From an uncultured virus (IMG/VR IMGVR_UViG_3300029812_000136) (lineage: Duplodnaviria; Heunggongvirae; Uroviricota; Caudoviricetes), in IMG/VR virus record IMGVR_UViG_3300029812_000136: a DNA stretch of 64,000 nucleotides; one strand, given 5' to 3'. Below the pieces are notes generated by a model that saw nothing but the letters and a program-made list of their open reading frames with translations, was not told where the DNA came from and did no database searches. Shown here in pieces: positions 6,619 to 7,560 of the stretch (positions are counted from its first letter, which is position 1; every line of letters begins with the position of its first letter). A program made the position numbers and the translations under genes.

Positions 6619-7560
6619 ATGATAGAAAAACAGAAAATATTTCCAACAAGAAAATATATCCAAAAAATAGTCAATAACGAACTCCACAACGCTCCTCCCT
6701 CTCTCCGTCAAGAATTAACTCAAAAACTCACAGAAAATCGTCAATCTCTCAACAAAAAAATAATCTTCAATATAATTCATAAAATCCAGAAAAAATATAA
6801 AGAATCTCAAGTAGAAGCTGGTGATGCTGTAGGCATCTTAGCAGCACAATCAATCGGGGAACCTGGAACACAAATGACATTACGCACATTTCATTATGCA
6901 GGTACTGCAGTTGGATTCCTCTCAGGTGGTTTTTCCAGAATAAGGGAAATTGTCGATGCAAATATCAATATCAAGAATCCATCAATGCGAATTGAGGCAA
7001 ATGAATGTGTAAATATTCATCTACTTCGTAAACGAATAGAAAATACTAAGAAAATAGATTTTGCTCTAATTCATCACAAATATGGAGAAGAGAAAGATAT
7101 AATCTACACTCGTGGTTCAAATCTCAAAGAAGTTCTAAATATTGTAGGTATAAATAGAGAAAAGACAACAACAAATGACATAAGAGAAATAGAAAATATC
7201 TTAGGAATTGAGGCTGCACGTCAATCTATAATAGATCAAATATCTGAAATCTACAAAAATGAAGATCTTCCAATTGATCTTAGGCACATAATACTTATAG
7301 CAGATGCAATGACTGTCAACGGAAAAGTTGAGGGGTTAAATCGGATCGGTATTATGAAACACAAAAAATCACCCATATGTAGAGCGTGTTTTGAGGAGAC
7401 TGTAAGTACCATTTACAATGCATCAGTATATTGTGAATACGAAGACGTGAATGGTATAATGGAAAATGTTCTTATAGGGACACATATAAATATAGGGACA
7501 GGTCGTGTTGATCTTGAATTGTGTAGAAGAGAAAATAATGGTGGAAAGGAAAGTGAATAA
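6619..7560 (+). CDS. rpoA2: DNA-directed RNA polymerase subunit A'' (Rpo1C) homolog, compact
   Basis: [30 protein letters not shown] trigger loop, [46 protein letters not shown]. Confidence 0.93.

What the first reader, a model, noticed from the sequence alone, without database searches (positions are those of the whole stretch)
6619..7560. Lone, shortened RNA polymerase A'' subunit in a virus
Seen: an intact trigger-loop motif and C-terminal clamp motifs in 313 aa, with only a short stretch between the RIREIV and [10 protein letters not shown] motifs. No other Rpo gene is in the window. Known: cellular Rpo1C is longer and carries the jaw domain in this interval. Inference: a jaw-truncated subunit that could replace the host subunit to reprogram or inhibit transcription.
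Basis: partly seen in the sequence, partly recalled or inferred. Interest (0 to 1): 0.7.

Follow-up and report, generated by a model that had tools for sequence, protein, structure and literature searches.

The report
Jaw-less RNA polymerase subunit on archaeal mobile element
A large virus-like mobile DNA element of methane-oxidising archaea carries a single, conserved copy of one catalytic piece of the host's RNA polymerase with its outer "jaw" cleanly removed, which suggests that the element swaps this piece into the host enzyme to change how it transcribes.

Summary
Window 6619-7560 (+) is an intact 313-aa ORF, an archaeal RNA polymerase A''/Rpo1C homologue (Pfam PF04998 E 3e-46). Its trigger-loop residues are invariant and its C-terminus is canonical. 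One contiguous block of about 90 residues, most of the jaw, is missing.

It is not a one-off or a pseudogene. It belongs to a monophyletic family of 30 clusters at 90% identity, 88 sequences of 292-327 aa, all with the same deletion. These sit on contigs of up to 164 kb.

No other RNA polymerase subunit is found in the 64-kb window. No capsid or packaging gene is found either, so "virus" is not shown. The element carries its own replisome and matches in gene order a published, unclassified ANME-1 mobile element. In that element a gene was annotated "subunit A''" in a supplementary table only.

Best reading (about 0.5): the protein replaces host A'' in the host polymerase, giving a jaw-less enzyme with altered grip on downstream DNA and no docking site for TFS-type factors. 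This is a new variant of a known kind. Interest 0.66.

The parts
6619..7560 (+). Jaw-less RNA polymerase subunit A''/Rpo1C homologue, 313 aa, intact ORF
   Evidence: ORF; PF04998 E 3.2e-46; TIGR02389 274.9 bits, below the cut-off of 420.65; best solved relative 8cro_C Rpo1C, E 6e-59; Foldseek E 5e-18 and VIA Z 19-20 to Rpo1C chains
6649..6807 (+). N-terminal helical part (residues 11-63), the archaea-specific N-terminal addition of Rpo1C, retained
   Evidence: Aligns to P. furiosus Rpo1C residues 7 onward. Helices H11-21, H27-39 and H46-63 in the model match H12-20, H26-38 and H45-62 of the cellular model. Domain naming from PMC11515920
6832..6903 (+). Trigger-loop base and tip (residues 72-95), motif [21 protein letters not shown]
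   Evidence: 12 invariant columns between residues 72 and 92 in 30 of 30 family members. In the complex model it contacts the C-terminal region of A' (residues 798-856) with the lowest expected errors
6955..7107 (+). Residual 'mini-jaw' (residues 113-163). The deletion junction lies between residues 133 and 134 (nt 7017/7018), where cellular A'' carries about 90 more residues
   Evidence: One contiguous gap of about 93 alignment columns against 6 cellular sequences. Inter-anchor length 42-47 versus 117-157 residues. The model shows strand-helix-strand-strand at pLDDT 85-90. The cellular ANME-1c model has 4 more strands and 3-4 more helices here. Collinear with bacterial beta' over query 64-237
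7108..7521 (+). C-terminal cleft and clamp-core part (residues 164-301), retained
   Evidence: Query 151-301 aligns to 8cro_C 235-384 at 128 bits. Model residues 101-240 superpose on Rpb1 1103-1414 at rmsd 1.4 A over 140 residues. Residues 265-293 contact the N-terminus of A' in the complex model
5140..5757 (+). Context: serine recombinase (resolvase/invertase) two genes upstream
   Evidence: PF00239 E 3.9e-29; phrog_125 E 1e-43
5750..6589 (+). Context: HNH endonuclease with NUMOD3 repeats, directly upstream. HNH or NinG-type nuclease genes also precede the gene in L048 and in the published relative
   Evidence: PF07460; PHROG HNH families; L048 ORFs; PMC9894754 Suppl. Table 11. The HNH proteins share only the generic motif
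7505..8677 (+). Context: P-loop ATPase of unknown family whose start overlaps the end of the A''-like gene. This neighbour is not conserved in relatives
   Evidence: Only weak AAA/STAND hits; no solved relative. L048 and the published relative have DNA-binding genes (wHTH; RHH then wHTH) here instead
19129..38666 (+). Context: the element's own replication module. It holds RFC-like clamp loader 19129-20070, Cas4-like nuclease 21334-22059, second clamp-loader-like ATPase 26260-26994, DUF3987 helicase-like 27592-28944, AEP primase 33543-34523, PolB 34873-37176, PCNA-like clamp 37490-38266 and phage-type metallopeptidase 38250-38666
   Evidence: Pfam, PHROGs, NCBIfam clamp. Same gene order as the published ANME-1 element IMGVR0541249. 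Nearest deposited relatives are haloarchaeal tailed viruses at 24-31% identity
49444..50628 (+). Context, host clue: TnpB/IS605 OrfB gene with a composition unlike the rest of the element
   Evidence: GC 42.7%, GC3 45.8%, against 33.1% for the window. The best named homologue is from a Candidatus Methanospirareceae (ANME-1) MAG at 71% identity

Best explanation
The gene encodes a working, jaw-less version of RNA polymerase subunit A'' (Rpo1C), carried by a large mobile element (virus or plasmid-like) of ANME-1 archaea. The element has its own replisome but no polymerase of its own. After entry, the protein is made and assembles with the host's A', B and small subunits in place of host A''. This yields a polymerase that keeps the trigger loop, and so catalysis, but lacks the upper jaw. 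Two consequences are inferred. First, the grip on downstream DNA (+12/+13) is weaker or different, which changes open-complex stability, pausing or template preference. Second, the surface on which TFS-type zinc-ribbon factors dock is lost, including virus-induced inhibitors of the TFS4 kind. The element's transcription would then proceed on an enzyme that escapes, or differs from, host control.

Shown here: identity, intactness, the precise deletion, conservation of the family, the lone status within the window, and the mobile-element context. Inferred: assembly into the host enzyme, and every functional consequence.
For: (1) It is a true A'' homologue with all non-jaw parts present.

(2) The deletion is one clean block confined to a peripheral module. 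Model residues 101-240 superpose on Rpb1 1103-1414 at 1.4 A over 140 residues, skipping the jaw. The cellular ANME-1c model has 4 extra strands and 3-4 extra helices at this site.

(3) Purifying selection points to a role in catalysis. There are 56 invariant columns in 30 members that are only 42-53% identical to the query. These include trigger-loop residues Q85, L88, R89, F91 and H92. Of 94 columns at least 85% conserved in 63 cellular A'', 61 keep the same residue in at least 80% of the family.

(4) The family is monophyletic in 200 of 200 NJ bootstraps. It holds 88 sequences in 30 clusters and is well separated from all else: 454 and 406 bits against 292 or less among 1.84 billion representatives.

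(5) No other polymerase subunit is in the window, and no other among the 52 genes listed for the published relative. Any polymerase role therefore needs host subunits.

(6) Complex prediction with a stand-in host A' (L129 residues 1-130 and 560-861) supports binding. The score is 0.63 and the best of 3 controls is 0.15. That mark was reached by 116 of 157 solved complexes and 2 of 215 mismatched pairs. The runs agree in at least 77% of contacts and the partner pLDDT is at least 69. Like complexes are solved, so this pass may reflect likeness only.

(7) The gene's GC (33.3%, GC3 22%) equals the element's (33.1%), so it is a long-resident gene, not a fresh capture.

(8) Literature passages: the jaw's lysine-rich region holds downstream DNA at +12/+13 (PMC3479171). 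[quoted passage not shown]
Against: There is no experiment and no expression data. Assembly is supported only by sequence conservation and by a model that may be repeating solved archaeal polymerase structures, with a stand-in A' whose genome is not the known host.

Ten positions that are conserved in cellular A'' carry different conserved residues in the family. The switch-1-like segment differs from the cellular form. Fit to host partners could therefore be impaired.

Two family members (P0007, P0010) deviate at the end of the trigger-loop motif.

TFS4-type inhibitors are documented only in Sulfolobales (PMC8448823, passages), not in ANME-1.

11.6 kb of the window's own contig were not visible, nor were the 110-164-kb contigs that hold other members. 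Partner subunits there cannot be excluded.

The two strands that follow the deletion are retained, so part of the jaw sheet surface may persist.
Confidence: 0.5

Rival explanations
1. Dominant-negative poison. The protein competes with host A'' during assembly and yields a crippled enzyme, shutting down host transcription.
For: Loss of the jaw removes a downstream-DNA contact (PMC3479171 passages). There are family-specific substitutions at 10 otherwise conserved positions. Archaeal viruses and hosts are known to shut down the polymerase through RIP and TFS4 (PMC8448823). The complex model supports docking to A' (score 0.63, best control 0.15, mark reached by 116 of 157 solved complexes and 2 of 215 mismatched pairs), which a poison also needs.
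Against: The element has about 130 genes and no polymerase of its own in the visible 64 kb, so it depends on the enzyme it would be poisoning. A mere assembly poison would have no need to keep the catalytic trigger-loop residues, yet they are invariant in 30 of 30 members.
Confidence: 0.15
2. It is one subunit of a complete element-encoded polymerase. The other subunits lie outside the window or are too divergent to recognise.
For: 11.6 kb of the contig are unseen. Other members lie on contigs of 110-164 kb that could not be fetched. Giant viruses and some phages encode full polymerases.
Against: No Rpb1, Rpb2 or small-subunit family hit in 136 ORFs. No ORF in the window exceeds 767 aa, and that one is PolB. 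The published 32.8-kb relative lists 52 genes with only A''. The weak IMG/VR hits are 2000-2500-aa fused polymerases of another kind. The family is archaeal in type and retains the A'/A'' split architecture.
Confidence: 0.1
3. It is a captured host gene with another role or none: a nucleic-acid-binding accessory of replication or recombination, or a slowly decaying passenger.
For: It sits among recombinase, HNH nuclease and resolvase genes in the window, in L048 and in the published relative. It falls short of the NCBIfam equivalog cut-off.
Against: Conservation is concentrated in polymerase-specific motifs. The family is old, diversified and compositionally adapted. There are no frameshifts or stops in 46 full-length sequences from independent assemblies.
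Confidence: 0.07
4. It is the ordinary A'' of an unknown archaeon with a minimal polymerase, and the contig is cellular.
For: Members were binned into MAGs named Aenigmarchaeota, Cloacimonas and Deltaproteobacteria. Some DPANN A'' genes are short (L128, L188).
Against: The bin names contradict one another, and one MAG holds two different copies. The window has no ribosomal, tRNA or other housekeeping genes and is 91% coding on one strand with replisome and transposon genes. The gene is not in an rpoH-B-A'-A'' operon. The short DPANN forms keep a full jaw of 131-135 residues. None of 79 genomes of one archaeal class carries the short form.
Confidence: 0.03

Closest known systems
Cellular archaeal RNA polymerase subunit A''/Rpo1C (TIGR02389; solved in 8cro_C, 4qiw_C, 2waq_C, 7ok0_C)
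   Same: Same fold and order of parts: N-terminal helices, trigger loop, cleft, C-terminal clamp core. 61 of 94 cellularly conserved columns are kept.
   Different: Lacks about 90 residues of the jaw. Only 37-42% identical to any cellular group over 296 shared columns, less than the 44-58% seen between archaeal phyla. Below the equivalog cut-off. Not in the rpo operon. Encoded on a mobile element.
[quoted passage not shown] 2023, PMC9894754, Supplementary Table 11)
   Same: Same kind of gene in the same place: after integrase, a NinG-type nuclease and a Holliday-junction resolvase, and before DNA-binding genes. Downstream the order RFC, Cas4-like, RFC, primase, PolB, PCNA, phage metallopeptidase is also shared. 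That element was assigned to ANME-1 by CRISPR spacers.
   Different: Only the table row was seen. The sequence was not in the collections held, so its length, its jaw status and its identity to the window gene are untested. The paper's main text never mentions RNA polymerase (0 occurrences).
Factors that act on the archaeal polymerase during infection: ATV RIP/ORF145 and host TFS4 (PMC8448823; PMC5123050)
   Same: Same target enzyme and the same arena of virus-host conflict over transcription. TFS4 docks on the very jaw that is missing here.
   Different: Those are small accessory proteins that bind the finished enzyme. This is a homologue of a core catalytic subunit that would be built into it.
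Homologues of basal transcription factor TFB encoded by archaeal viruses and mobile elements (Asgard virus JinchiV1, Sulfolobales viruses, ANME-1 element PBM152)
   Same: A host-derived component of the transcription apparatus carried by a mobile element.
   Different: An initiation factor, not a polymerase subunit. No TFB-like gene was detected in this window.
E. coli beta' jaw deletion mutant and T7 Gp2, which binds the beta' jaw
   Same: A polymerase without its jaw is viable but altered in open-complex stability and pausing, and is resistant to a jaw-binding inhibitor. This is the functional analogy behind the proposed mechanism. The family is collinear with bacterial beta' across this region.
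   Different: A laboratory mutant of a bacterial enzyme, not a natural gene borne by a mobile element.
Multisubunit polymerases of giant viruses and jumbo or crAss-like phages
   Same: Distant homology in the Rpb1 domain 5 region, 24-34% identity.
   Different: Those are complete enzymes or giant fused proteins of 2000-2500 aa. This is a single 313-aa subunit.

Membership tests
Archaeal RNA polymerase subunit A''/Rpo1C | Significant match to RNA_pol_Rpb1_5 and best solved relatives are Rpo1C chains | tested here: met
   PF04998 E 3.2e-46; 8cro_C E 6.4e-59; Foldseek E 5e-18; VIA Z 19.9, rmsd 13.8 A, 197 residues aligned to 4qiw_C
Archaeal RNA polymerase subunit A''/Rpo1C | Reaches the curated equivalog score of TIGR02389 | tested here: not met
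   274.9 bits against a cut-off of 420.65, match in two stretches
Archaeal RNA polymerase subunit A''/Rpo1C | Trigger loop with catalytic Gln, Leu and His | tested here: met
   Q85, L88 and H92 invariant in 30 of 30. The assignment of these residues to catalytic roles (Rpb1 Q1078, L1081, H1085) is recalled
Archaeal RNA polymerase subunit A''/Rpo1C | Jaw domain (aa 147-234 of S. shibatae Rpo1C; Rpb1 1141-1275) | tested here: not met
   42-47 residues against 117-157 between anchors; contiguous gap of about 93 columns; missing strands and helices; jaw boundaries from PMC3479171
Archaeal RNA polymerase subunit A''/Rpo1C | C-terminal cleft and clamp-core segment | tested here: met
   Query 151-301 aligns to 8cro_C 235-384
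Archaeal RNA polymerase subunit A''/Rpo1C | Encoded next to rpoA' and rpoB in the polymerase operon | tested here: not met
   The neighbours are a recombinase, an HNH nuclease and an ATPase. In cellular loci A' lies directly upstream
Archaeal RNA polymerase subunit A''/Rpo1C | Assembles with A' in the enzyme | tested here: inconclusive
   Complex prediction score 0.63, best control 0.15; the mark was reached by 116 of 157 solved complexes and 2 of 215 mismatched pairs; at least 77% contact agreement; partner pLDDT at least 69. A stand-in A' was used and like complexes are solved, so this shows likeness, not binding
Virus (any realm) | Hallmark virion genes: major capsid protein, portal, terminase or other packaging ATPase | tested here: inconclusive
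   None detected by Pfam or PHROGs in 136 ORFs. One candidate ORF is a membrane glycosyltransferase-like protein. 11.6 kb of the contig are unseen. Archaeal capsid proteins often escape profiles. The replication genes are nearest to those of haloarchaeal tailed viruses
ANME-1 mobile elements of the IMGVR0541249 type (PMC9894754) | Shared gene order of recombinase, nuclease, A'', then RFC, Cas4, RFC, primase, PolB, PCNA, metallopeptidase | tested here: met
   Comparison of the window annotation with Supplementary Table 11. By annotation only
ANME-1 mobile elements of the IMGVR0541249 type (PMC9894754) | Sequence similarity to the published element, and targeting by ANME-1 CRISPR spacers | not testable with these tools
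   The record was not found in the held viral collection and no spacer set is on hand. Indirect host clues: a TnpB 71% identical to a Methanospirareceae protein, and the best cellular A'' hit comes from the same family

The most novel reading that the evidence does not exclude
Mobile elements (probably large viruses) of methane-oxidising ANME-1 archaea remodel the host's RNA polymerase from within. They swap in their own jaw-less catalytic subunit, making an enzyme that still transcribes but no longer offers the jaw to host TFS-type regulators or shut-off factors and handles downstream DNA differently. This would be the first natural case, in any domain, of a mobile element replacing a core catalytic subunit of the cellular multisubunit polymerase, rather than binding it with a small factor or bringing a whole polymerase. 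It would also qualify the rule that archaeal viruses encode no polymerase parts.
Probability: 0.4. Interest if true: 0.85.

Novelty: new variant of a known kind. Interest (0 to 1): 0.66.

Why it matters
Archaeal viruses are described as encoding no RNA polymerase of their own and depending wholly on the host enzyme (PMC5569661, abstract in a search listing). The known ways of interfering are small factors that bind the finished enzyme, such as RIP and TFS4, or viral TFB homologues.

A conserved, lone, catalytically intact but jaw-less A'' on mobile elements points to a different strategy: subunit substitution. If true, it gives a natural experiment on what the jaw does in archaeal and Pol II-type enzymes, namely downstream DNA clamping and docking of TFS/TFIIS/Rpb9-type factors. 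It is directly testable with existing in-vitro reconstitution systems for archaeal polymerases. It also bears on gene expression control in ANME-1, organisms central to marine methane removal that cannot yet be grown in pure culture.

If false, meaning the protein does not assemble, the family is still an unusually clean example of domain excision in a core information-processing protein.

Tried and rejected
Maximum-likelihood trees. treekit, FastTree and iqtree2 could not be loaded. I used my own neighbour-joining with Kimura distances and 200 bootstraps, which cannot resolve the long branch. The sister group is unresolved. Without an outgroup, 41 of 200 replicates gave a Methanobrevibacter-type group and 38 of 200 an ANME-1/Methanosarcinales group. 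With a bacterial outgroup, the family fell outside all cellular archaea in 35 of 200.

Context of other members. The IMG/VR scan with the family profile found no close relative: 49 relatives, the best 24-34% identical, from giant viruses or 2000-2500-aa fused polymerases. The metagenome scan gave one member, L048 at 7.2 kb, among 80 kept of 565. The tool for fetching contigs by exact protein is closed, so the contigs of 56-164 kb holding P0007, P0014, P0016, P0018, P0026 and P0027 were not seen.

PolB searches. PolB as a probe found no close relative in IMG/VR.

Expression. For sequencing runs of window 5100-8700, none was listed and no RNA holder was listed.

Earlier notes of this scan. By sequence, only cellular A'' or unsplit rpoA notes came up, sharing 5 of 180 words. 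By place, nothing.

Hypotheses tested and set aside.
- A specific link between the upstream HNH genes of the window and of L048: only the generic HNH motif is shared.
- The downstream ATPase as a conserved partner: not conserved in relatives and of no informative family.
- Rfam: no match in the window.
- The bacterial-type promoter and terminator scan is not applicable to archaea.
- Jaw-less forms hidden among distant relatives: of the best 150 of 17,048 profile hits, only P0004, P0137 and the fragment P0240 are collinear. P0232, P0233 and P0263 carry a full jaw on inspection.
- A capsid candidate at 62232-63188 is a PMT_2/ArnT-like membrane protein.

Literature. Eight full-text searches found no paper discussing a polymerase subunit encoded by an archaeal virus or mobile element. 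The only trace is one row in a supplementary table. Supplementary file 5 of PMC9894754 held no searchable text and was not searched. bioRxiv supplements were not opened.
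Full report
**The observation**

Window 6619-7560 (+) is an uninterrupted 313-codon ORF starting with ATG.
- It matches Pfam RNA_pol_Rpb1_5 (E 3.2e-46, residues 58-251).
- It matches the NCBIfam model for archaeal subunit A'' (TIGR02389) at 274.9 bits. That is two stretches and below the equivalog cut-off of 420.65.
- Against solved structures the best relatives are archaeal Rpo1C chains. For P. furiosus 8cro_C (E 6.4e-59), query 14-129 aligns to chain 7-124 and query 151-301 to chain 235-384. About 110 chain residues therefore face about 20 in the query.

**What is missing**

I aligned 258 sequences: 122 A'' regions cut from fetched loci and 136 proteins from the searches. 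I then measured the stretch between query residues 114 and 162.
- It is 42-47 residues in 46 short-family sequences.
- It is 117-157 residues in 210 of 211 cellular sequences, and 93 in one (P0050).

A focused alignment shows one contiguous gap of about 93 columns, between ...ECVNIH (residue 133) and LLRKRIEN... (residue 134).

AlphaFold models of the query (mean pLDDT 65; the region 120-170 scores 85-90) and of an ANME-1c cellular A'' (P0031, mean pLDDT 68) locate the loss. The cellular protein has, between the strand after the trigger loop and the last two strands, four further strands and three to four helices. The short form keeps only strand-helix-strand-strand.

Other structural checks agree.
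- The model core (residues 101-240) superposes on Pol II Rpb1 1103-1414 at rmsd 1.4 A over 140 residues, skipping the jaw (7f4g_A, Z 16.4).
- Passages of PMC3479171 give the jaw as aa 147-234 of S. shibatae Rpo1C and Rpb1 1141-1275.
- A passage of PMC11515920 describes two archaea-specific domains nested in the universal domain here, plus an N-terminal archaea-specific addition.
- The short form keeps the N-terminal addition. Across the deletion site it is collinear with bacterial beta': query 61-233 aligns to TIGR02386 871-1041, and query 64-237 aligns to about 170-180 residues in 8 bacterial sequences.

So it looks like an archaeal A'' that lost the inserted jaw, not a pre-insertion relic.

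**It is a family, not an accident**

The homologue search returned 29 further clusters of 292-327 aa. They are 43-54% identical over 92-96% of the query (E 2e-92 to 4e-68). A step then separates them from cellular A'' (E 2.8e-59 and weaker). With the query's own cluster this makes 88 member sequences in 30 clusters.
- All 30 aligned members share the deletion. There are 56 invariant columns, including 12 between residues 72 and 92.
- A profile search of 1.84 billion representatives gave 17,048 hits. Only P0004 (454 bits), P0137 (406 bits) and the fragment P0240 are collinear; the next hit scores 292 bits in two stretches. No fused or longer form of the family appeared there.
- Of 94 columns at least 85% conserved in 63 cellular A'', 61 keep the same residue in at least 80% of 31 family members. 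Ten carry a different conserved residue and 23 vary.
- My NJ trees recover the family in 200 of 200 bootstraps (94 sequences, 296 columns; with 8 bacterial outgroups, 270 columns).
- Its position is unresolved. It falls outside all cellular archaea in 35 of 200 replicates and otherwise nests at varying places, most often near ANME-1/Methanosarcinales or Methanobrevibacter-type sequences.
- It is 37-42% identical to any cellular group, highest to the ANME-1/Methanosarcinales/Methanomicrobia group. Archaeal phyla are 44-58% identical to one another. That pattern suggests fast evolution after capture.
- The gene's composition (GC 33.3%, GC3 22%) equals the window's (33.1%).

**The element**

The window is 91% coding, with 133 ORFs of 50 aa or more, all on one strand. 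It has no tRNA and no Rfam match.

Pfam and PHROGs identify the following genes:
- a serine recombinase;
- an HNH/NUMOD3 nuclease;
- two clamp-loader-type ATPases;
- a Cas4-like nuclease;
- a DUF3987 helicase-like protein;
- an AEP primase;
- PolB;
- a PCNA-like clamp;
- a phage-type metallopeptidase;
- an ERCC4 nuclease;
- two TnpB genes;
- glycosyltransferases;
- two radical-SAM/SPASM proteins;
- a thymidylate-synthase-like protein.

There is no other polymerase subunit and no capsid, portal or terminase gene. The largest ORF is PolB at 767 aa. PolB, RFC and the Cas4-like nuclease are nearest (24-31% identity) to those of haloarchaeal tailed viruses, where RFC and Cas4 are also close neighbours. 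The window could therefore be the non-structural arm of a large tailed virus, but that is inference.

Named GenBank members of the family sit in MAGs labelled Cloacimonas, Aenigmarchaeota (two different copies in one MAG) and Deltaproteobacteria. That pattern is expected of mis-binned mobile DNA. None of 79 genomes of the class around the L129 genome has the short form; 76 have the two-piece, jaw-bearing match.

**Link to published work and to a host**

In Laso-Perez et al. 2023 (PMC9894754) the main text has no occurrence of 'RNA polymerase'. [quoted passage not shown] That element is 32,815 bp with morphology 'Unclear' (Table 9).

The published gene order is: integrase, NinG-like nuclease, Holliday-junction resolvase, A'', RHH, wHTH, then RFC small subunit, Cas4-like, methyltransferase, RFC, Rad52-like, AEP primase, PolB, PCNA, and phage metallopeptidase.

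The window follows the same order. L048 shows HNH, HNH, a 118-aa ORF of unknown family (not scanned), A'', then a 99-aa ORF, also not scanned, in the position of the relative's wHTH gene.

The paper assigned its elements to ANME-1 by CRISPR spacers (section 9, read in full).

Independent hints from the window point the same way.
- The TnpB at 49444-50628 has a foreign composition (GC 42.7%). Its best named homologue is from a Methanospirareceae (ANME-1) MAG at 71% identity.
- The best cellular hit of the A''-like protein is from the same family.

I could not compare sequences with the published element, because it is not in the held collections.

**How it most likely works**

The deletion removes a peripheral module. 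The parts that, in the solved enzymes, are buried against A' and B are kept and conserved. The catalytic trigger-loop residues are invariant.

A complex prediction used the A' of the L129 genome as a stand-in host (residues 1-130 and 560-861).
- It supports binding: score 0.63, best of 3 controls 0.15. That mark was reached by 116 of 157 solved complexes and 2 of 215 mismatched pairs.
- The runs agree in at least 77% of contacts and the partner pLDDT is at least 69.
- The trigger-loop base lies on A' residues 798-856, and the C-terminus on the A' N-terminus.
- Archaeal polymerases are solved, so this shows likeness, not binding.

I conclude, with about even odds, that the protein is built into the host enzyme in place of host A''.

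What the jaw-less enzyme gains is inferred from passages in two papers. The jaw's lysine-rich region stabilises downstream DNA at +12/+13 (PMC3479171). [quoted passage not shown]

From memory, not seen here: the E. coli beta' jaw deletion shortens open-complex life, reduces pausing and gives resistance to the jaw-binding T7 Gp2. Single host-complex subunits carried by viruses (phage bS21, cyanophage D1) are precedents for substitution.

**Rivals**

The rivals are a dominant-negative poison, a subunit of a complete element-encoded polymerase, a non-polymerase role, and a cellular gene of an unknown archaeon. They are set out with their evidence in the Rival explanations section.

The main open points are:
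- the unseen 11.6 kb of this contig and the unseen large contigs of other members;
- the absence of any expression or biochemical data;
- the unproven virus status.

**Novelty**

Eight full-text searches found no discussion of a polymerase subunit encoded by an archaeal virus or mobile element. A review abstract states that archaeal viruses encode no polymerases of their own (PMC5569661, search listing). Viral TFB homologues are known (PMC13700489 passage; PBM152).

The only trace of this gene in print that I found is the single table row. I rate it a new variant of a known kind: a known subunit family, in a new form (jaw excised), in a new place (a mobile element, alone).

Noticed in passing
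window 45230-47680 (+): A DUF2284 metal-binding protein gene carries an intein. The N-terminal splicing region ends ORF 45230-46003 and the C-terminal splicing region starts ORF 46910-47680, both in the same frame. The 312-codon middle ORF 45996-46934 is in another frame and has no Pfam or PHROG match. It may be a frameshifted intein, an intein invaded by another gene, or assembly errors.
   Followed up: no
window 49444-50628 (+): This TnpB/IS605 OrfB gene has GC 42.7% and GC3 45.8%, against 33% for the element. Close homologues run from 84% down to 71% identity, and the best named one is from a Methanospirareceae MAG. It looks like a recent arrival from the host genome. A second, more adapted TnpB lies at 24857-26089 (GC 36.8%).
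   Followed up: partly
window 8677-9553: The only long non-coding gap (876 bp) lies just downstream of the A''-ATPase pair. It is AT-rich and has an exact 17-nt direct repeat (8677 and 8946), further imperfect repeats and short tandem repeats. It may be a control region or an origin.
   Followed up: no
window 61501-61656 (+): A 52-aa CxxC...CxxC zinc-ribbon ORF has a sub-threshold hit to Zn_ribbon_RPB9, the N-terminal ribbon of TFS/Rpb9-type factors (E 0.006, 16.9 bits against a cut-off of 25.2). It is probably just a generic zinc ribbon. It is noted because that ribbon is what docks on the jaw.
   Followed up: no
window 5860-5999 within the HNH gene 5750-6589: A 54-nt tandem repeat (2.6 copies, 75% matches) encodes repeated NUMOD3-like DNA-binding motifs in the HNH endonuclease just upstream of the A''-like gene.
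   Followed up: no
protein P0050 (377 aa, from a 1.8-kb contig): This otherwise cellular-looking A'' has a partly shortened jaw: 93 residues between the anchors, against 117-157 in the other 210 cellular sequences. In some bootstraps it groups near the short family. It may be an intermediate or an independent shortening.
   Followed up: partly
loci L128, L188 (Micrarchaeota MAGs), L050, L051, L120, L122: These A'' open frames are only 334-350 aa, yet keep a full-length jaw of 131-142 residues between the anchors. The shortness therefore lies outside the jaw; where was not checked (two of these frames start at or near a contig end). It is a different kind of shortening from the one studied here.
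   Followed up: partly
window 19129-22059 and 34873-38266: The replication genes (RFC, Cas4-like nuclease, PolB) are nearest to those of about 100-kb haloarchaeal tailed viruses (HCTV-1, HVTV-1, HRTV-27) at 24-31% identity. In HCTV-1 and HCTV-16 the RFC and Cas4 genes are also close neighbours.
   Followed up: partly
window 42316-63188: The right half of the window is rich in surface and modification genes. It holds GT2, GT1 and PMT_2/ArnT-like glycosyltransferases, two radical-SAM/SPASM enzymes, a TSP3-repeat protein, a NADAR domain protein and a truncated-looking thymidylate synthase homologue.
   Followed up: no
PMC9894754 Supplementary Table 11, element PBM152: PBM152 is an unclassified ANME-1 element that the paper's tables put in the same viral cluster (347_0) as the A''-bearing element. 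It encodes a TFB-like protein, a type IV CRISPR-Cas module and an MCM helicase, but no A''. Mobile elements of this host thus carry different pieces of the transcription apparatus.
   Followed up: no
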